Of a stretch of DNA of 8,955 nucleotides, positions 2,621-8,955 are shown one piece after another. Location: the IMG/VR virus record IMGVR_UViG_3300029214_000257, positions 1-8,955 of that record. The stretch is one strand, 5' to 3'. A program made the position numbers and the translations under genes. How positions within the stretch are numbered: position 1 is the stretch's first letter; every line of letters begins with the position of its first letter. This DNA comes from a virus. Taxonomy: Duplodnaviria; Heunggongvirae; Uroviricota; Caudoviricetes. The notes below the pieces were generated by a model. It was given only the letters and a program-made list of their open reading frames with translations, ran no database searches and had not been told where the DNA came from.

Positions 2621-2732
2621 AACTGAAGTTGCCCTGAAAATGAAATTTTTTTGCACAACCGCAGAACTTTTCCGCAGGGCATCAGTCTTAATTAGTGCCA
2701 CTGCTTTTCTTTGATGTCCCCATTTTGTGGAG

Positions 2733-2775
2733 CCCATCAACCCCGCCATTTCGGTTCAAGGTTGATGGGTTTTTT
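2733..2775 (+). terminator. rho-independent terminator downstream of ybjL
   Basis: CCCATCAACC (2733-2742) pairs with GGTTGATGGG (2760-2769), then TTTTTT (2770-2775). About 113 nt after the ybjL stop. Confidence 0.5.
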
Positions 2776-2833
2776 GTTGCCTGAAATTTATGCTATTTAA
2801 AATCATGATGTTAGAAGCACTGTTTTTTAACGA

Positions 2834-2855
2834 TGGCGACAAAATGGCGGCAGCG
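2834..2855. repeat. 22-bp direct repeat copy 1 (candidate attR core): TGGCGACAAAATGGCGGCAGCG
   Basis: Matches 8916-8937 (TGGCGACAAAGTGGCGGCAGCG) at 21 of 22 positions in the same orientation. It ends exactly at the ogr-like stop codon (2856-2858, minus strand). Confidence 0.55.
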
Positions 2856-3074
2856 TCAAAGAGAGAGCTCCACCTGTCCTGATTTCATTGGATGCGGCTG
2901 AACCGGATTTGACTCTTTTGGCGTTGCAATCGAACGAACAAAAGTTTCATGGGTAACAAAAGTATGGCTGCAGTTAATGTTCTGGCACTGGTTGTAACGT
3001 TCTTTGGTCAATGAAGATACCTGAAAACTGCTGCGAGTATGGGCGGCACTTCCACACAGTGGGCAAATCATCAT
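2856..3074 (-). CDS. ogr: Ogr/Delta-family zinc-finger late-gene transcription activator
   Basis: 72-aa product from ATG at 3074 (MMICPLCGSAAH...CQNINCSHTF...). Cys4 spacing and length match P2 Ogr (72 aa, recalled). Lies directly downstream of the D fragment as in P2. The ORF track's 83-aa version starts 11 codons upstream. Confidence 0.75.
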   Translation of the reverse strand: MMICPLCGSAAHTRSSFQVSSLTKERYNQCQNINCSHTFVTHETFVRSIATPKESNPVQPHPMKSGQVELSL

Positions 3075-3164
3075 TTTTCGAGTTCTCCCCATTTTTGCTA
3101 AATTCACAATAATGATACCGCATTATTCCATTTTGCAAACTTAAAAGTTCTCCATTGCGAAGAA

Positions 3165-3605
3165 TCATTCCATTTCGAAATCATCAATCCTCACTTCAAG
3201 CTCCAGACTGGTCGTAAAACCATTATCCGGGCTGACGGTATGAGTCAGAGTCGTAATGGTCCATTCCGCATCATCTATCGGTTGTTTAAAGCCACTAACT
3301 TTCACTGGCATTTCCGTGTAAAGATCTGCCCGCCCTTCCGCCAGTTGTAGCGAGAATGACGCAACGCCGCGTTGCAGGCGTTCCCACTGCATTTTCGCTG
3401 CCCGTTCAGCGTTGCTCCGGTTGGCATAAGTGCGATTAAGTACCAGCACGTTTTCATCCGTACCCACCAGGTAATCGCCCTGCTTCGCTTCCGGCTCTTT
3501 CTTCTGCTTCTTAGTTCTGCGCTTACGCTTCACCGTGGTGCTTTCTTTCTTCGCAGGTTCGCGGGTATGCAACCAGCTGGCAATTACGCCCGTGTAAACG
3601 CCCAA
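3165..3605 (-). pseudogene. C-terminal fragment of P2 gpD-like tail protein (D')
   Basis: Translation (GVYTGVIASWLHTRE...LQRGVASFSLQLAEGRADLY...LELEV...) resembles the C-terminal third of P2 gpD from memory. No ATG start: the frame opens with TTG at 3605 and is open up to 3626. Sits immediately upstream of ogr as in P2. Confidence 0.55.
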
Positions 3606-4062
3606 TCTGTGCCCACTGTTCGGTGGTCAACTTAGGACGGCGTCCACCTACTCTGCCTTTGGCACGAGCTGCAGCCAGCCCTGCCCTGGTACGTTCAACT
3701 ATCAGTTCGCGTTCCATTTCAGCCAGGGCACCCATGACATGAAAAAAGAAACGGCCCATTGGGGTACTGGTATCAATACTGTCAGTCAGGCTTCTGAAAT
3801 TCACACCACGCTGGCGCAACTCTTCTATCAGCGTAACAAGATGCCGCATACTGCGCCCCAACCTGTCCAGCTTCCAGACAACCAGCGTGTCTCCTGCCGA
3901 TAGTGTCCTGAGTAGTTTTTTCAGCCCCGGTCTGTCGGACTTAGTGCCACTGATTTTGTCCTCAAAAATCTGCTCACATCCCGCGCAATTCAGTGCATTA
4001 CGTTGCAAATCGGTGTTCTGGTCATTTGTTGACACGCGTACATAGCCAATAAGCATGATCAT
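3523..4062 (-). pseudogene. truncated Pin/Gin/Hin-family serine DNA invertase (catalytic domain only; C-terminal HTH lost)
   Basis: N-terminal about 156 aa (LIGYVRVSTNDQ...DTLVVWKLDRLGRS...GRFFFHVMGALAEMERE...) closely resembles e14 Pin from memory. Homology stops after ...TEQWAQIGRL near nt 3595 and the frame runs into unrelated sequence before the stop at 3523. Confidence 0.75.
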
Positions 4063-4112
4063 CCCCCTGAATAAAAACCGGAGATGATGCCAGTTAGCTG
4101 TTACCTCTGCAT

Positions 4113-4138
4113 TTTCTTAAACGTTGGTTTGGGAGAAG
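4113..4138. other. candidate gix/hix-like invertase crossover site (TTTTCTTAAACG TT GGTTTGGGAGAA)
   Basis: 26-bp imperfect inverted repeat matching recalled gix/hix sites at about 17 of 26 positions. Located about 50 bp upstream of the invertase start, the usual site-invertase arrangement. Confidence 0.3.
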
Positions 4139-4350
4139 CCAGATATCAGCGTTGAATCTTCAGTCAGATCGGTAAGCAGCCAGATTTCTGGTGCGGTTAA
4201 TAAATGAGGTTGAGCTGGGTTCAGCTTGTTCCGCAGAATCTGCACATTCATGCCAGCACGTTCTGCCAGTTGCACCAGGTTGTGGCGCAATGCGAATGCA
4301 CGACAGGCTTCATCAAAATGTGGATGTTTGGAAACTTGGTAATCAAACAT
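4117..4350 (-). pseudogene. truncated CII-like HTH regulator (186 CII-type N-terminal domain only)
   Basis: 77 aa from ATG 4350 ([45 protein letters not shown]...). Clear HTH, resembles the N-terminus of phage 186 CII from memory. Ends at about 77 aa versus about 169 expected. SD AGAGG 9 nt upstream. Lies downstream of the apl-like gene as in 186. Confidence 0.5.
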
Positions 4351-4382
4351 GGTCAATGCCTCTGATGTATTTCAGAATCGAA

Positions 4383-4604
4383 CTAATTAAGGTTTAGATT
4401 GCATTCTGAAAGCGCATCAACGGTCATGGCTGCTATGTTGATCATCACTTTTTCGCGTTTTTTATCTTTCCGCAGACGGTGACGGATAAGACGTCCATCA
4501 GCCAACATGTCATTGATAGTATCGATGGATAGCCCTGTCAGCTCGCTATAACGTTCAATAGTCACATGAGGCGTGGTAAGAGTGATTGAAATGTTATGTT
4601 TCAT
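4383..4604 (-). CDS. Apl/Cox-like excisionase / lytic-operon first gene (small HTH protein)
   Basis: 73-aa ORF with an AlpA/excisionase-like HTH ([23 protein letters not shown]). Divergent from cI and first gene of the apl-cII-type operon. Confidence 0.5.
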
Positions 4605-4729
4605 GATGCAACATTCCTCGTTTAATGTTGATTAATCAGGACGAATACGGATCGTTTGTATTTTGTGAACATCATAAACATACGATCGCATAATGAAATC
4701 GTCAAGACAAAAGTTCACTTGGAGTGACC
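4605..4729. promoter_or_regulatory. lysis/lysogeny switch region between divergent apl-like and cI-like genes
   Basis: 125-bp AT-rich intergenic region. Minus-strand candidate promoter: -35 TTGACG (4705-4700), 17-bp spacer, -10 TATGTT (4682-4677). GTGAAC (4666-4671) and GTTCAC (4713-4718) form an inverted pair. Palindrome CGATCG at 4683-4688. Confidence 0.4.
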
Positions 4730-5299
4730 ATGAATTTGGAGAAAGGCGGACGAGGCGCTATAGAGCGCATGGTAGAAGCATATGGCTTCAAGACTCGACA
4801 GGCGTTGTGCGATCACTTAGGAATCTCTAAAAGTACTCTCGCCACACGCTATATGCGTGACTCATTCCCTGCTGAATGGGTAATCCAGTGCGCACTTGAA
4901 ACGGGCGCCTCGCTTAACTGGCTCACGACCGGACATGGTTCAAAGCAAACTTCAGGTAATACAAATACTATGGAAGTCGTTAAATATGTATTATCTGATG
5001 GAACCTTGCAGGAAGATGGTTTTTATATTTTCGATAAAGAATTTCTACCATCTACGCTCAAAAATCCGTTTGTAATCACCGATAACAATTCCGTTTTTAT
5101 TTGCGATAAAGAGTTTAACGATATTCGTGACGGCAAATGGGTAATAAGTATTGATGCCGAAGTAACAATCCGCGATATCACTCGTTTACCTGGTGGAAGA
5201 ATCTTAGTTGAAGGTGGAAATAGGGCTTTCGAATGTAAAAAAGAAGAAATCGAAATTATTGGAAAAATTATAACCATAACAGTTAAGTACTTTGAGTAA
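4730..5299 (+). CDS. cI: 186-type CI immunity repressor (N-terminal HTH domain plus C-terminal oligomerisation domain)
   Basis: 189 aa from ATG 4730, with GGAG SD 5 nt upstream (the ORF track starts at an in-frame GTG at 4724). The N-terminal domain (GGRGAIERMVEAYGFKTRQALCDHLGISKSTLATRYMRDSFPAEWVIQCALETGASLNWL) looks like the 186 CI DNA-binding domain. Length matches 186 CI (about 192 aa). Confidence 0.8.
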   Translation: MNLEKGGRGAIERMVEAYGFKTRQALCDHLGISKSTLATRYMRDSFPAEWVIQCALETGASLNWLTTGHGSKQTSGNTNTMEVVKYVLSDGTLQEDGFYIFDKEFLPSTLKNPFVITDNNSVFICDKEFNDIRDGKWVISIDAEVTIRDITRLPGGRILVEGGNRAFECKKEEIEIIGKIITITVKYFE

Positions 5300-5349
5300 T
5301 ATAGGAATGTTTTTATGCTTGGTAAAGCATTTGTTGTGGTGTAAAAAAT

Positions 5350-6273
5350 ATGTCAACTCAAAAATTAAAATTTAGCCATATCAAAAACGATCTGAAAGCA
5401 ATAGTCATGCAGAATCGTGGAGGGCAAAAAGTTATTGAGCGTATACTCCTAGCCTATGGCTTCAAGTCACGACAGGCATTATGTAATCATCTAGGTATTT
5501 CCCAAAGTACTATGGCCAACAGATATGCACGTAATACCTTTCCTGCAGATTGGGTTGTTATATGTTCCATAGAAACAGGAGCATCAATTGAATGGTTAGT
5601 TCTTGGTTCAGATACTGCTCCTTCATCAGAGCAATATTCTGAAAAACATGCCGTTAATGGCCTTTGCAATGAAGTATACATTCCCACTATAAAGTTCGAT
5701 AATGAAAAACTCATGAATTTTAACCGAGGAGGTAAGGCAACAATAGAACGAATTGTCGAGGCTTACGGTTACAAAACGCGCCAAGCATTAGCTGATCACC
5801 TAGGTATTTCAAAAAGCACATTAGCCACACGATACATGCGTGACATTTTTCCTGCAGACTGGGTTTTGCAGTGTGCAATAGAAACGGGCCATTCTATTGA
5901 ATGGATTTCATTTGGTACAGGAGAAATGAAAAACGCAAAAAATAAAGATACTTTAACATTAGTGAAAAAAGTATTAATCAATGGCAAGTTAATAAATGAT
6001 GGCTCATATTTATTTGACCCATGTTTTCTACCTTCCAATTTAAAAAATGCATTCGTAGTATCTACCGAAGGCTCTGAATTAATATGTGAAATGGGTTTTA
6101 AAGATGTACATGATGGTAAGTGGCTAGTAAATATTGATGGAGAGAATTCATTTAGAATGATAACTCGACTACCTAAAGGACGAGTTTATATTTCATCCAA
6201 AAATCACTCTTTTGAATGTTCGCTTACAGACATTGAGTTTATTGCAAAAGTTATTATAAGTTGTTTACATTAA
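5350..6273 (+). CDS. CI-repressor paralogue with tandemly duplicated N-terminal HTH domain plus CI-like C-terminal domain
   Basis: 307-aa ORF. Residues about 24-86 and 127-189 are two copies of the CI N-terminal domain (copy 2 is about 75% identical to the adjacent cI N-terminal domain). Residues about 200-307 parallel the cI C-terminal domain (VVKYVLSDGTL...DGKW in cI versus LVKKVLINGKL...DGKW here). Alternative start at M20 (5407). Confidence 0.75.
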   Translation: MSTQKLKFSHIKNDLKAIVMQNRGGQKVIERILLAYGFKSRQALCNHLGISQSTMANRYARNTFPADWVVICSIETGASIEWLVLGSDTAPSSEQYSEKHAVNGLCNEVYIPTIKFDNEKLMNFNRGGKATIERIVEAYGYKTRQALADHLGISKSTLATRYMRDIFPADWVLQCAIETGHSIEWISFGTGEMKNAKNKDTLTLVKKVLINGKLINDGSYLFDPCFLPSNLKNAFVVSTEGSELICEMGFKDVHDGKWLVNIDGENSFRMITRLPKGRVYISSKNHSFECSLTDIEFIAKVIISCLH

Positions 6274-6298
6274 GTAAATTTTTCATGGAGACTTCATA

Positions 6299-7816
6299 GT
6301 GAAATGTGGTGATTGTAATTGGAACTGGGATGAAGAAACTACCTTTATATTAGACGACGAAGAGGAAATTCTCTCCAAAGACAAACTTAATCGGAGACAC
6401 TATGCAGAATATCTATATTTTTATCTTAAGGAAAAGGGGCAAAAGAACAATACGGTAATCAACCTTAATGCAGAATGGGGAGCTGGTAAAAGTTTTTTCA
6501 TAAAGAGATTTTATAACTCAATAAAAGATGCACACCCATGCGTTTACATTGATGCCTGGAAGCAAGACTTTTCTGATGATGCATTTTTAACCCTTTTTTC
6601 TTCTTTGTCACAACAATTGCAAACATATGCAGGAAAACTTGATGCTCGATTGATACAAAGCGGCCATGCTATCGGACGCTTTACAAAAGGTGTTCTACCT
6701 GAAATCATATCTGGCCTAATCAAGACTTATGCAGGAGTAGATAACGTAGGTGATATAGCCAAAGAAGCCTCATTAATAATGCTGAAGGAACACCAGGAAA
6801 AACTGAAGAGCATTAAGGTATTAAAAAAAGAACTTACGTTATGGTCTAGGTTGGCATATGAAAATAGTTTTTCATGTCCTATATTTATCTTTATAGATGA
6901 ATTAGACAGATGCAGGCCAGATTATGCAATTTCTCTTTTAGAGATTGTTAAACATATATTCGATATTAAAAATTTTGTCTTTATTATTGCTACTGACACA
7001 GATCAATTACAACATTCAATCAAGAATGTTTACGGTAATGATTTTTCCGCAAATGACTATTTAGGCCGTTTTTTTCATAGAAGATTTACTTTAAAACAAC
7101 CTGAACTTAAAGATTTAATTAATGGTGTTGTTGGTGATTATATTGGTACCGAGTTTGAAAATATCACATCAAAAACATACCCACTAACCGCAACATTAGA
7201 AGACTTTTCAATAAATATTTCCAACGTATTTGAAGCATTTGGGTTAAATCTAAGAGACTCAATCCGAAATACTGAAAGGTTAATAGACATTCTTAAATCT
7301 GATTTAGTCAAAAAGAAAGTAGATTATATTTTTATAATTTCGCTAATGATTATATATGATAAGGATCGTCAAATTATAGATGGACTAATTGGTCGAAGAA
7401 ATGCAGCACAACGTTTCACTGATTCGATAAAGCAAAGCTCCAATTTAAAAGGTGTTTCTCAAGCCATCCTTGAATTAAATCTTGATACAAATCAGCAAAG
7501 AATAGGTGTCAATTATATCTATACAACGGCGAACAGTAGATTATTCATCTCACAGATCGAACCCAAAATAAGTTTAACATTAATAAATTACTTAGATGTT
7601 GCATTGTATTTTATCAATAATATAAACATACTTAAATCAAGTATAAAAAACAATGGGCAAAATTCACTAATGATTAAATCTAAACAAGGCCCTATTGATG
7701 GTGATACAGCTATAAAGTATTTGCAAGGAGCCCTTATAGAGAATGGACTGAATACATCTTTTTATGCCTTACATAATTACATTGAATTAATTGAACTGGC
7801 CACATCATTTGATTAA
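6299..7816 (+). CDS. KAP-family P-loop NTPase (PifA-like)
   Basis: 505-aa ORF with GTG start at 6299 and GGAG 9 nt upstream. Walker A EWGAGKS (G61-S65, nt 6479-6493). KAP-type Walker B IFIDELDRC (D200-C205, nt 6896-6913). Very AT-rich coding sequence. Starts 25 bp after the 307-aa ORF, so probably co-transcribed. Confidence 0.85.
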   Translation: MKCGDCNWNWDEETTFILDDEEEILSKDKLNRRHYAEYLYFYLKEKGQKNNTVINLNAEWGAGKSFFIKRFYNSIKDAHPCVYIDAWKQDFSDDAFLTLFSSLSQQLQTYAGKLDARLIQSGHAIGRFTKGVLPEIISGLIKTYAGVDNVGDIAKEASLIMLKEHQEKLKSIKVLKKELTLWSRLAYENSFSCPIFIFIDELDRCRPDYAISLLEIVKHIFDIKNFVFIIATDTDQLQHSIKNVYGNDFSANDYLGRFFHRRFTLKQPELKDLINGVVGDYIGTEFENITSKTYPLTATLEDFSINISNVFEAFGLNLRDSIRNTERLIDILKSDLVKKKVDYIFIISLMIIYDKDRQIIDGLIGRRNAAQRFTDSIKQSSNLKGVSQAILELNLDTNQQRIGVNYIYTTANSRLFISQIEPKISLTLINYLDVALYFINNINILKSSIKNNGQNSLMIKSKQGPIDGDTAIKYLQGALIENGLNTSFYALHNYIELIELATSFD

Positions 7817-7877
7817 AAGCATTGTTTGAATAAACTAAACCATACATTGACCACTGGTCAAACATACAGTTAAATTT

Positions 7878-7902
7878 AGCCCTCTGATATGAGGGCTTTA
7901 TT
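7878..7902 (+). terminator. stem-loop AGCCCTC-tgatat-GAGGGCT followed by TTTATT; terminator for the cargo operon and/or structure occluding the int ribosome-binding site
   Basis: 7-bp GC stem, about 60 nt after the KAP stop. The 3' arm GAGGG doubles as the int Shine-Dalgarno sequence, 7 nt upstream of ATG 7903. Confidence 0.4.
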
Positions 7903-8955
7903 ATGGCAGTACGAAAACTCACCACAGGAAAATGGCTTTGCGAATGTTACCCCGCCGGACGTAGTGGGCGTCGGGTGCGTAAACAATTCGCCACCAAAGG
8001 CGAAGCTCTGGCTTTTGAGCGCCACACGATGGAAGAAACCGAAGCAAAGCCCTGGCTGGGTGAATCAGTGGATCGTCGAACACTGAAAGACGTGGTTGAG
8101 CTATGGTTCAAACTACATGGTAAATCTCTGACAGCTGGGCAGCATGTCTATGACAAATTGCTGTTGATGGTTGACGCTCTGGGCAATCCTCTTGCAACCG
8201 ATCTCACCTCTAAAATGTTTGCCCACTATCGAGATAAACGCCTGACAGGCGAGATCTACTTCAGCGAGAAATGGAAGAAAGGAGCAAGCCCGGTCACCAT
8301 TAACCTGGAGCAAAGCTATCTAAGTAGTGTTTTTAGCGAACTATCCCGTCTGGGCGAATGGTCGTATCCGAACCCACTGGAGAACATGCGAAAATTCACC
8401 ATCGCAGAAAAAGAGATGGCATGGCTTACCCATGAGCAGATTGTTGAATTGCTGGCTGATTGCAAACGTCAGGACCCAATTCTGGCACTGGTAGTTAAGA
8501 TATGCTTAAGCACAGGCGCACGCTGGCGTGAAGCCGTAAATCTTACCCGCTCACAGGTGACCAAATACCGAATTACCTTTGTCAGAACGAAGGGGAAGAA
8601 AAACAGAAGCATCCCTATAAGTAAAGAGCTTTACGAAGAGATCATGGCGCTTGATGGGTTCAATTTCTTTACAGACTGCTATTTTCAATTTTTATCCGTG
8701 ATGGAAAAAACGTCTATCGTGCTCCCTCGCGGTCAACTCACACACGTTCTGCGCCATACGTTTGCGGCGCACTTCATGATGTCGGGTGGAAACATTCTGG
8801 CCTTACAAAAAATTCTCGGACACCACGATATAAAAATGACTATGCGTTACGCACATCTGGCACCGGATCATCTGGAAACGGCGCTCCGTTTCAATCCTCT
8901 GGCAACGCTGCCAAGTGGCGACAAAGTGGCGGCAGCGGTTGGCATTACCCCGTAA
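7903..8955 (+). CDS. int: P2-type tyrosine integrase
   Basis: 350 aa, alignable by eye with P2 Int (recalled): ICLSTGARWREA (Arg box), TFVRTKGKKNRSIPIS, HVLRHTFAAHFMMSGGNILALQKILGH, MRYAHL (catalytic Tyr). The 3' end overlaps the second 22-bp repeat. Confidence 0.9.
   Translation: MAVRKLTTGKWLCECYPAGRSGRRVRKQFATKGEALAFERHTMEETEAKPWLGESVDRRTLKDVVELWFKLHGKSLTAGQHVYDKLLLMVDALGNPLATDLTSKMFAHYRDKRLTGEIYFSEKWKKGASPVTINLEQSYLSSVFSELSRLGEWSYPNPLENMRKFTIAEKEMAWLTHEQIVELLADCKRQDPILALVVKICLSTGARWREAVNLTRSQVTKYRITFVRTKGKKNRSIPISKELYEEIMALDGFNFFTDCYFQFLSVMEKTSIVLPRGQLTHVLRHTFAAHFMMSGGNILALQKILGHHDIKMTMRYAHLAPDHLETALRFNPLATLPSGDKVAAAVGITP
8916..8937. repeat. 22-bp direct repeat copy 2 (candidate attL core): TGGCGACAAAGTGGCGGCAGCG
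   Basis: 21 of 22 identical to 2834-2855. Lies inside the last 14 codons of int, so the final 6 int codons (8938-8955) fall outside the repeat-bounded element. Confidence 0.55.

What the first reader, a model, noticed from the sequence alone, without database searches (positions are those of the whole stretch)
6299..7816. PifA-like KAP P-loop NTPase with intact catalytic motifs and no obvious transmembrane insertion
Walker A (EWGAGKS, residues 59-65) and the KAP-type Walker B (IFIDELDRC, residues 197-205) are both intact, so this looks like an active NTPase. Many KAP NTPases carry transmembrane helices inserted between the two motifs; by eye I see no strongly hydrophobic segment in residues 66-196, suggesting a soluble variant. 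The C-terminal about 300 aa is Asn/Ile/Lys-rich and has no domain I recognise; it could be the effector or sensor part.
Basis: partly seen in the sequence, partly recalled or inferred. Interest (0 to 1): 0.7.

Follow-up and report, generated by a model that had tools for sequence, protein, structure and literature searches.

The report
Prophage KAP NTPase, likely phage defence
The gene is a real, intact KAP-family ATPase with no membrane segment, carried as cargo between the repressor and integrase genes of a decayed 186-like prophage of E. coli; it belongs to a catalogued but untested candidate anti-phage family, so it is a reasonable but not surprising defence candidate.

Summary
Window 6299-7816 (+) is a 505-aa ORF with a GTG start and a GGAG ribosome-binding site 8 nt upstream. 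RefSeq annotates the same boundaries. Walker A sits at residues 59-65 and Walker B at 197-205. It matches Pfam KAP_NTPase (E 1.7e-45), and no hydrophobic window reaches transmembrane level.

It is not a PifA orthologue. Its family is PADLOC's untested single-gene candidate PDC-S20 (E 6e-78). PifA and QatA match only the NTPase core.

The gene lies in a 2.5-kb low-GC cassette (5341-7840) between cI and int of a degraded 186-like prophage. That slot is variable. In other E. coli it holds PD-lambda-1/SNIPE (a validated defence), small unknown genes, or a second KAP clade. KAP homologues at 35-79% identity occupy the same slot in Klebsiella, Enterobacter and Serratia.

All AAA+-type catalytic positions are invariant. 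The nearest solved fold for the whole protein is RdrA of RADAR. The C-terminal 240 aa model confidently but match no solved structure and no enzyme fold. Residues 386-465 evolve fastest.

Best reading: a lysogen-expressed, single-protein sensor-NTPase that blocks superinfecting phages. Neither the defence role nor the mechanism has been tested. It is a new member of a known kind, of moderate interest.

The parts
6299..7816 (+). KAP-family P-loop NTPase gene (505 aa, GTG start), a member of the PADLOC PDC-S20 family
6287..6290 (+). GGAG ribosome-binding site, 8 nt before the GTG start
   Evidence: read from the sequence
6299..6391 (+). Acidic N-terminal extension (residues 1-31, pI 4.05), modelled as a beta-hairpin; W10 and D28 are invariant; lies outside the Pfam KAP model
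6473..6493 (+). Walker A, EWGAGKS (residues 59-65); W60, G61, G63 and K64 are invariant in 59 homologues
6581..6868 (+). Helical insert between the Walker motifs (residues 95-190), at the position where membrane-type KAPs carry transmembrane helices. Here it is amphipathic or polar, with low model confidence at residues 125-142
6887..6913 (+). Walker B, KAP signature IFIDELDRC (residues 197-205); I199, D200, E201, L202, D203, R204 and C205 are invariant
6992..6997 (+). T232-D233 at the end of strand 226-231, the sensor-1 position (inferred); invariant
7067..7084 (+). R257 to R262 (GRFFHRRF), both invariant; arginine-finger candidates (inferred)
7196..7303 (+). Lid-like helical bundle (residues 300-335) with invariant R319 at the start of a helix; sensor-2-like (inferred)
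7304..7813 (+). Family-specific C-terminal domain (residues 336-505). The C-terminal model that contains it (residues 266-505) is confident, yet it matches no solved structure and has no sequence relative outside the family
7454..7693 (+). Fastest-evolving sub-domain (residues 386-465: four strands plus two helices); proposed specificity or sensor surface
5341..7840 (+). Low-GC cargo cassette (cI2 plus KAP). Its edges are set by where homology to same-immunity prophages with other cargo stops and resumes
5350..6273 (+). Second CI-like gene (307 aa): an extra HTH (residues 20-90) fused in frame to a complete CI (M122-307), 70% identical to the single CI that precedes KAP in a Klebsiella prophage
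4724..5299 (+). Resident 186-type CI repressor, first gene of the rightward (lysogenic) gene string cI-cI2-KAP-int
4666..4694 (+). Promoter-like site upstream of cI (TGAACA-17-CATAAT), a candidate pL facing a leftward site at 4705-4677. This is a consensus match only
7903..8955 (+). Tyrosine integrase (350 aa), the conserved right flank of the cargo slot
7878..7897 (+). GC-rich stem-loop just upstream of the int start, inside the conserved right flank

Best explanation
The gene encodes a stand-alone, non-membrane KAP-family NTPase. [quoted passage not shown]

It is most likely co-transcribed with cI in the lysogen and protects the cell, and the prophage, against superinfecting phages.

Proposed mechanism, all inferred: the protein idles as a nucleotide-bound monomer. 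The fast-evolving C-terminal sub-domain (residues 386-465) binds a phage-made protein or complex. Binding triggers assembly of an AAA+/RdrA-like ring through the conserved arginine fingers, and ATP hydrolysis follows. Because no separate effector domain exists, the ring itself would be the effector. It would either remodel or sequester its phage target, or drain ATP, and so stop phage development.

Shown here: family membership, intact catalytic residues, absence of a transmembrane segment, cargo-slot location, lack of a conserved partner gene, and the conservation gradient. Inferred: expression from pL, the defence phenotype, oligomerisation, the sensing role of the C-terminus and the nature of the effector step.
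For: Family: Pfam KAP_NTPase at E 1.7e-45; PADLOC PDC-S20 at E 6.2e-78, also matched by every homologue tested.

Catalytic set invariant in 59 homologues down to 31% identity: K64, D200/E201, T232/D233, R257, R262, R319.

Structure: Foldseek ranks the ring ATPase RdrA of RADAR first (E 7.5e-7), followed by HslU, RuvB, ORC/Cdc6, ClpX and Apaf-1.

Cargo slot: the 5341-7840 cassette is 30-35% GC against about 45-50% in the flanks. The same slot holds PD-lambda-1/SNIPE at E 4.7e-120, which is a validated defence (PMC13190303). It also holds a 63-aa gene, three unknown genes, or a 35%-identical KAP clade.

Precedent for the slot: a cI-int hotspot is described for P2-related Vibrio phages (PMC9122126), and 8% of P2 defence systems lie between int and the primase (PMC13586616).

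Homologues at 52-79% identity sit as cI-KAP-int in Klebsiella, Enterobacter and Serratia prophages. Distant ones do the same in Vibrio and Aeromonas.

Retention: the gene survives in independently deleted prophage remnants (the window, AF44, Pectobacterium).

No conserved partner: no family occurs in more than 4 of 147 flanking genes of 80 distant loci. Some of those neighbours are defence genes: PbeA, type I and type IV restriction, AbiEii, DolB, PsyrT, SduA, IetS.

Conservation gradient: identity in the NTPase core (residues 191-265) is 94/82/72/67% across four homologue groups, against 43/20/15/10% for residues 386-465. All 9 amino-acid differences from the E2348/69 allele fall in residues 285-462.

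Operon layout: same strand, gaps of 50, 25 and 86 nt, and no convincing terminator between cI and KAP.

[quoted passage not shown] The single-gene KAP system 'Reve' from P4 satellites also protects (PMC13586616).
Against: There is no experimental test of this protein or of PDC-S20. The PDC set is explicitly untested.

No effector fold was recognised, so the killing or blocking step is a guess.

Similarity to RdrA is modest (TM-score 0.39 on the query) and may reflect only the shared AAA+-like core.

The inter-domain geometry of the full model is uncertain (pTM 0.57).

dN/dS in the C-terminus is below 1 (0.41 from 9 nonsynonymous and 6 synonymous changes). Faster evolution there may therefore be relaxed constraint rather than an arms race.

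Most immediate neighbours of distant homologues are housekeeping genes.

Promoter and terminator calls are consensus matches at chance frequency.

Only 17 of 5426 complete E. coli genomes carry this allele group.
Confidence: 0.6

Rival explanations
1. PifA-type abortive infection at the membrane. Although it has no transmembrane helix, the protein associates peripherally with the inner membrane, as PifA does. On sensing a phage protein it would cause membrane depolarisation and nucleotide leakage, killing the infected cell.
For: It shares the KAP domain with PifA (PADLOC PifA E 9.9e-17). PifA also lacks transmembrane helices yet acts at the membrane (PMC13001434). The insert between the Walker motifs holds moderately amphipathic helices (hydrophobic moment 0.46-0.53), at the place where other KAPs carry membrane spans.
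Against: Similarity to PifA stops at residue 274, and PifA's roughly 450-aa C-terminal part has no counterpart here. No segment is strongly amphipathic and hydrophobic together. The one KAP defence protein whose mode of action was examined was reported not to act by abortive infection (PMC13552941).
Confidence: 0.15
2. Two-gene unit with the CI-like protein. KAP would work with the adjacent CI-type repressor (cI2, or cI in other genera), for example by guarding the repressor against phage anti-repressors or by tuning immunity, rather than acting alone.
For: In every 186-like context, KAP lies 0-57 nt downstream of a CI gene. In E. coli, the KAP gene and 'its' CI (70% identical to the Klebsiella CI) form a single cassette placed after the resident cI.
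Against: CI is simply the normal left flank of this slot for any cargo, including SNIPE. Only 3 of 80 distant loci with KAP homologues have any CI-like neighbour, and no partner family recurs.
Confidence: 0.1
3. Not a defence gene. It would be a phage accessory or selfish gene with another role (lysogeny, excision control or host physiology), or a decaying passenger with no current function.
For: There are no functional data. The gene sits in a degraded prophage. The allele group is rare in E. coli (17 of 5426 genomes). Most neighbours of distant homologues are housekeeping genes.
Against: The ORF is intact and every catalytic position is invariant. There are no nonsynonymous changes in the NTPase domain between E. 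coli alleles. The gene is retained while lytic genes were deleted independently. The slot is dispensable for the phage and carries a proven defence gene in other strains. The family was flagged independently by embedding within BREX, DISARM or type I RM loci.
Confidence: 0.15

Closest known systems
PADLOC PDC-S20 (single-gene phage defence candidate)
   Same: Best profile match: E 6.2e-78, residues 20-389 against profile positions 11-382 of 464. Homologues from 35% to 79% identity all match it. Organisation is single-gene.
   Different: PDC-S20 is a bioinformatic candidate with no experimental test. The profile does not cover the last roughly 115 residues of this protein. The PDC set was derived from genes embedded in BREX, DISARM and type I RM loci, whereas here the context is a prophage cI-int slot.
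KAP NTPase + region-of-unknown-function antiphage proteins (EF_KAP and three gut-metagenome proteins; PMC13552941)
   Same: A KAP NTPase followed by a C-terminal region with no known domain or structural relative. Defence there needs both Walker B and the C-terminal region. This is the same architectural logic.
   Different: EF_KAP has two transmembrane helices and comes from Firmicutes, next to small serine recombinases. The protein here has none.
Reve (single-gene KAP system from P4-satellite hotspots; PMC13586616)
   Same: A single gene with ATPase/KAP P-loop domains, carried in an enterobacterial P2/P4-type mobile-element hotspot and protective against phages.
   Different: Reve sits in P4 satellites, not in the P2/186 cI-int slot. 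It was chosen from among P4 genes that carried no defence annotation. Its sequence is in a supplement that is not held, so identity with this family could not be checked.
PifA (F plasmid, exclusion of T7)
   Same: KAP-family NTPase domain, no transmembrane helices, carried on a mobile element, anti-phage.
   Different: Only the NTPase core aligns (profile positions 15-262 of 720, 59 bits). PifA has a long, unrelated C-terminal part and lies in the pif operon of F.
RdrA of RADAR (PDB 8hr8, 8fnt)
   Same: Best solved structural match to the whole model: Foldseek E 7.5e-7, about 430-450 aligned columns. Both are defence-associated ring-type AAA+-like ATPases.
   Different: TM-score is only 0.39. 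RdrA is about 830-850 residues in the solved chains and works with the deaminase RdrB, which is absent here. No sequence-level match was found.
QatA of QatABCD
   Same: KAP-type Walker B region (PADLOC E 7e-14; NCBIfam 43 bits).
   Different: The score is far below the equivalog cut-off (43 against 600 bits). There are no qatBCD genes nearby.

Membership tests
KAP P-loop NTPase (Pfam PF07693) | Profile match above the curated threshold | tested here: met
   156 bits against a cut-off of 20, E 1.7e-45, residues 32-303
KAP P-loop NTPase (Pfam PF07693) | Walker A GxxGxGK[ST] and KAP-type Walker B hhhhDE/DLDR | tested here: met
   EWGAGKS at 59-65 and IFIDELDRC at 197-205; invariant in 59 homologues
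KAP P-loop NTPase (Pfam PF07693) | Transmembrane helices in or next to the NTPase domain (frequent in the family but not universal; PifA lacks them) | tested here: not met
   Kyte-Doolittle maximum 0.84 between the Walker motifs and 1.43 overall; the model shows soluble helices. No dedicated transmembrane predictor was available.
PADLOC PDC-S20 | Match to the PDC-S20 profiles as the best defence-library hit | tested here: met
   E 6.2e-78, 1.2e-46, 1.7e-32 and 1.5e-25 for the four models
PADLOC PDC-S20 | Single-gene system with no obligatory partner | tested here: met
   cI-KAP-int with no other cargo in Klebsiella, Enterobacter and Serratia; no recurrent neighbour among 147 flanking genes
PADLOC PDC-S20 | Anti-phage activity | not testable with these tools
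   The PDC set is described by its authors as untested
PifA (F plasmid) | Full-length similarity to PifA | tested here: not met
   The PifA profile matches only positions 15-262 of 720, 58.8 bits
PifA (F plasmid) | pif operon / F-plasmid context | tested here: not met
   The gene is in a chromosomal prophage cI-int slot
PifA (F plasmid) | Abortive infection triggered by T7 gp1.2/gp10, with membrane leakage | not testable with these tools
   Requires infection experiments
QatA (QatABCD) | NCBIfam equivalog score and qatBCD neighbours | tested here: not met
   43.3 bits against a cut-off of 600; the neighbours are cI-like and int genes
RdrA (RADAR) | RdrA fold over the full length, with an adjacent RdrB deaminase | tested here: not met
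   Only partial structural similarity (TM-score 0.39); no deaminase gene in the window
STAND/Avs-type pattern-recognition NTPases | Tripartite effector-NTPase-repeat sensor architecture | tested here: not met
   No effector domain and no TPR, LRR or WD repeats. The C-terminal domain has no structural match. There is only a weak NACHT-related NPHP3_N hit (28.5 bits), and Apaf-1 appears at E 7.5e-4.
Prophage defence hotspot (cI-int slot of P2/186-like phages) | Variable gene content between conserved flanks | tested here: met
   Homology breaks at 5340 and resumes at 7841. Five different contents occur in the same chromosomal prophage site.
Prophage defence hotspot (cI-int slot of P2/186-like phages) | Validated defence genes among the alternative contents | tested here: met
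   L004:7219-8895 matches PD-lambda-1 at E 4.7e-120. PD-lambda-1 is SNIPE, shown to cleave injected phage DNA (PMC13190303).

The most novel reading that the evidence does not exclude
This family may be a minimal soluble immune NTPase in which the ATPase ring is itself the effector, with no nuclease, protease, pore or partner enzyme. Specificity would come from a C-terminal sensor domain of a fold not seen in any solved structure. Alternatively, its constant position right after a CI repressor may reflect a guard function that watches the prophage's own immunity repressor. Either case would add a new mechanistic type to prokaryotic immunity, and the protein would be a tractable 505-aa model for how KAP NTPases work, something that has not been worked out for any KAP NTPase.
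Probability: 0.2. Interest if true: 0.7.

Novelty: new member of a known kind. Interest (0 to 1): 0.4.

Why it matters
KAP NTPases were predicted two decades ago to act in defence. Only recently have single-protein KAP systems been shown to protect bacteria, and none has a known mechanism.

This protein is small and has no transmembrane segment. Its C-terminal domain models with high confidence, and its natural alleles differ only in a putative specificity patch. It also lies in a genetically well-understood phage (186-like) and host (E. coli, including EPEC E2348/69). That makes it a convenient entry point for working out sensing and effector steps of the family.

The locus also documents the cI-int slot of E. 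coli 186-like prophages as a defence cargo site. That slot keeps its cargo after the rest of the prophage has decayed.

Tried and rejected
**Solved relatives by sequence.** I searched the PDB with the single sequence and with a 59-sequence profile. There were no meaningful hits.

**C-terminal region alone.** A search with residues 297-505 against 1.84 billion representative proteins found only members of the same family, plus one low-complexity giant protein.

**AFDB50 Foldseek** was not available.

**PifA orthology** was rejected, because only the NTPase core matches.

**QatA** was rejected: 43 bits against a cut-off of 600, and no qatBCD genes nearby.

**Obligatory partnership with the second CI-like gene** was rejected as the main model, because closer and more distant homologues lack it.

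**A conserved partner among neighbours of 80 distant homologues** was looked for and none was found.

**Positive selection in the C-terminus.** The counts are too small and the ratios are below 1.

**Amphipathic membrane-binding helix.** The result was not convincing.

**Isolated phage genomes.** Only 5 weak partial matches at or below 31% identity were found.

**Literature.** I found no test of this protein or of PDC-S20. Brenes and Laub 2025 and Aravind 2004 are not held. The sequence of 'Reve' is not available.
Full report
**1. The observation**

Window 6299-7816 (+) is an uninterrupted 505-codon ORF. It starts at GTG 6299, with GGAG at 6287-6290, 8 nt upstream. That is 25 nt after the stop codon of the preceding gene. 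RefSeq annotates exactly these boundaries in 17 complete E. coli genomes at 98.8-100% DNA identity. Examples are WP_032209911.1 in strain ECO8855 and WP_000649630.1 in EPEC E2348/69, named 'KAP family P-loop NTPase fold protein'.

Pfam KAP_NTPase matches residues 32-303 with E 1.7e-45. No 19-residue window reaches the usual hydropathy threshold for a membrane span: the maximum is 1.43 overall and 0.84 between the Walker motifs.

**2. Where the gene sits**

The window is E. coli chromosome: grxA, ybjM, ybjL and the sRNA gene rybB (2700-2778), followed by a decayed 186/P2-like prophage. The prophage genes, in order, are:

- ogr (2856-3107, -)
- a 3' fragment of gene D
- a truncated tail-fibre-type serine invertase (3523-4062, -)
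- a truncated cII
- apl/cox (4383-4604, -)
- cI (4724-5299, +)
- a second CI-like gene (5350-6273, +)
- the KAP gene
- int (7903-8955, +)

In ECO8855 and E2348/69 the same cI-cI2-KAP-int block belongs to a prophage that retains its full early region. The ECO8855 prophage also carries the invertase about 24 kb upstream of the KAP gene. The window therefore represents a remnant made by internal deletions.

An imperfect 22-nt direct repeat marks the likely att cores. The copies are TGGCGACAAAATGGCGGCAGCG at 2834-2855 and, with one mismatch, at 8916-8937.

**3. The gene is cargo in a variable slot**

GC content is 30-35% from about 5000 to 7800, against about 45-50% on either side. BLASTN was run against prophages at the same chromosomal site that have the same immunity type but other cargo. 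Homology stops at 5340 and resumes at 7841, so cI2 plus KAP form one 2.5-kb cassette.

The same slot between cI and int holds different contents in other strains:

- a DUF4041 protein in strain L6-21, which matches PD-lambda-1 at E 4.7e-120;
- a 63-aa unknown gene in ETEC1706 and BE2-5;
- three unknown genes in TUM10008;
- a 483-aa KAP of only 35% identity in further E. coli (P0086).

PD-lambda-1 is SNIPE, a membrane nuclease shown to cut phage DNA during injection (PMC13190303).

Published work supports the slot as a defence site. It describes a cI-integrase hotspot in P2-related Vibrio phages (PMC9122126). It also reports that 8% of the defence systems of P2-like prophages lie between integrase and primase (PMC13586616).

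The slot is on the lysogenic side of the switch. cI, cI2, KAP and int are on one strand with gaps of 50, 25 and 86 nt and no convincing terminator before KAP. Expression in the lysogen is therefore likely, but it was not shown.

**4. The family**

A search of 5.8 billion proteins gave 905 relatives. Full-length homologues of 35-79% identity are common in Enterobacterales. Looking up their contigs showed the same arrangement, cI-KAP-int, in 186-like prophages of Klebsiella (79%), Enterobacter (63%) and Serratia (52%). In each case there is only one CI gene.

In Pectobacterium the KAP gene survives between mere fragments of cI and int. More distant relatives (28-40% identity, 470-595 aa) occur across Proteobacteria and beyond. 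Two of these, in Vibrio diabolicus and Aeromonas, again lie between the cII/cI genes and int.

Among 147 genes flanking 80 distant homologues, no family recurs more than four times. There is therefore no conserved partner. A minority are defence genes: PbeA, type I and type IV restriction, AbiEii, DolB, PsyrT, SduA and IetS.

In the PADLOC library the protein and all tested homologues match PDC-S20 best (E 6.2e-78). PifA (E 9.9e-17, residues 26-274 only) and QatA (E 7e-14) match just the NTPase core. NCBIfam QatA scores 43 bits against a cut-off of 600. PDC systems are 145 candidates found by 'guilt by embedding' within BREX, DISARM and type I RM loci, and are explicitly untested (bioRxiv 10.1101/2024.01.29.577857).

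**5. Anatomy of the protein**

In an alignment of 59 homologues down to 31% identity, the invariant positions include:

- W60, G61, G63, K64 (Walker A);
- I199, D200, E201, L202, D203, R204, C205, P207 (Walker B);
- T232, D233, T234 at the end of a core strand;
- Q236, L237, Q238, H239;
- R257 and R262;
- R319 at the start of a helix in the following helical bundle.

By position in the model, these correspond to the sensor-1, arginine-finger and sensor-2 elements of AAA+-type ring ATPases. That mapping is inference.

The AlphaFold2 model of the whole protein has mean pLDDT 79.6 and pTM 0.57. It shows an N-terminal beta-hairpin. It also shows a P-loop core with a helical insert (residues 95-190, poorly defined at 125-142) at the place where membrane-type KAPs carry their spans. 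A lid-like bundle and a mixed alpha/beta C-terminal part follow.

Foldseek against the PDB ranks RdrA, the heptameric ring ATPase of the RADAR defence system, first (E 7.5e-7, TM-score 0.39). HslU, PCH-2, RuvB, ClpX, ORC/Cdc6 and Apaf-1 follow. No PDB sequence is detectable by a family profile.

**6. The C-terminal region**

No nuclease, protease, pore or other effector fold is therefore recognisable.

Conservation falls steeply along the chain. Identity to the query in four homologue groups is 94/82/72/67% for residues 191-265, but 43/20/15/10% for residues 386-465.

Between the window allele and the E2348/69 allele, all nine amino-acid changes lie in residues 285-462. The NTPase half has 0 nonsynonymous and 3 synonymous changes. 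The C-terminal half has 9 and 6 (dN/dS about 0.41). This fits a specificity surface, but the counts are small and do not show positive selection.

**7. Transmembrane question**

Hydropathy maxima in the 59 aligned relatives and in 81 distant ones occasionally reach 1.6-2.0. Among the highest-scoring windows listed (the top 10-12 of each set), nearly all lie after Walker B (around residues 210 and 340), in segments the model shows as buried strand or helix. Two exceptions near positions 141 and 187 occur in distant paralogues.

The family as a whole therefore appears to lack transmembrane segments. This is not remarkable for KAP proteins: PifA, a founding member, has none (PMC13001434). No strongly amphipathic, hydrophobic helix was found, so peripheral membrane binding is neither supported nor excluded.

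**8. Interpretation**

The best-supported reading is a prophage-carried, single-protein anti-phage system of the KAP class.

Two recent papers give the class experimental standing. KAP NTPases fused to C-terminal regions of unknown function protect Enterococcus in a manner that depends on Walker B and on the C-terminal region, and the one examined did not act by abortive infection (PMC13552941). The single-gene KAP system 'Reve' from P4 satellites also protects E. coli (PMC13586616).

By analogy with those systems and with ring ATPases, I propose a three-step model. The variable C-terminal patch binds a phage product. Binding licenses ring assembly and ATP hydrolysis. The ring then acts directly on its target or on the ATP pool, because there is no other effector. 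Only the parts list is shown; every step of the mechanism is inferred.

Three rivals remain:

- a PifA-like membrane effect;
- cooperation with the neighbouring CI-type repressor;
- a non-defence or vestigial role.

**9. Novelty and score**

The gene is already annotated as a KAP NTPase. Its family is already listed as a defence candidate, the class has validated members, and the type of cargo slot has been described. It is therefore a new member of a known kind.

What remains open is whether this family defends at all, what it senses and how a protein without an effector domain stops a phage. The protein is a convenient model for those questions, which justifies moderate interest (0.4).

Noticed in passing
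window 5350-6273 (+): The second 'CI' ORF is a composite. It has an extra CI-type HTH (residues 20-90, 65% identical to the next HTH) fused in frame to a complete CI (M122-307). That CI is 70% identical to the sole CI of a Klebsiella 186-like prophage, closer than to the resident cI (57%). The remnant thus carries two, arguably three, repressor modules in tandem, possibly giving immunity to a second immunity type. The true start could be M122 (nt 5713).
   Followed up: partly
window 2834-8937; loci L003, L004, L099, L100, L101: The 186-like prophage between rybB/ybjL and rcdA has been reduced by different internal deletions in many E. coli strains. Each version keeps ogr and a D fragment at one end and cII'-apl-cI-cargo-int at the other. 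Repeated retention of the immunity and cargo module suggests selection for it, or simply against lytic genes.
   Followed up: partly
window 3523-4062 (-): A truncated Pin/Hin-type serine invertase (resolvase domain intact, C-terminal HTH lost) lies at a deletion junction between the D fragment and the truncated cII. It is 99.5% identical to the tail-fibre invertase in the ECO8855 prophage, which lies about 24 kb upstream of that prophage's KAP gene. No complete genome in the collection has this exact junction.
   Followed up: partly
window 2700-2778 (+) and 2834-2855 / 8916-8937: The sRNA gene rybB (Rfam 105 bits) lies 55 nt from the left prophage end. A 22-nt imperfect direct repeat (one mismatch) next to ogr and inside the last codons of int marks the probable att cores.
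   Followed up: partly
window 7878-7897 (+): A GC-rich stem-loop (AGCCCTC-6 nt-GAGGGCT) ends 5 nt before the int start codon, within the conserved flank. It could limit read-through from the cargo gene or control int translation.
   Followed up: no
L085:7878-9100, L100:9408-10636: In Klebsiella and some E. coli versions of this prophage, a Panacea (SocA) domain protein plus an unknown gene sit between int and the right att site. This is a second cargo position, probably a toxin-antitoxin or defence pair.
   Followed up: no
L044:5276-8377, L045:4295-8605: Some distant genomes (Ferrimonas, Vibrio sp. Y2-5) carry two diverged KAP paralogues of this family side by side.
   Followed up: no
L101:9622-10500: Another E. 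coli prophage at the same site has a 292-aa 'CI', about 100 aa longer than usual, followed by three unknown cargo genes. Extended CI genes may be a recurrent feature of this slot.
   Followed up: no
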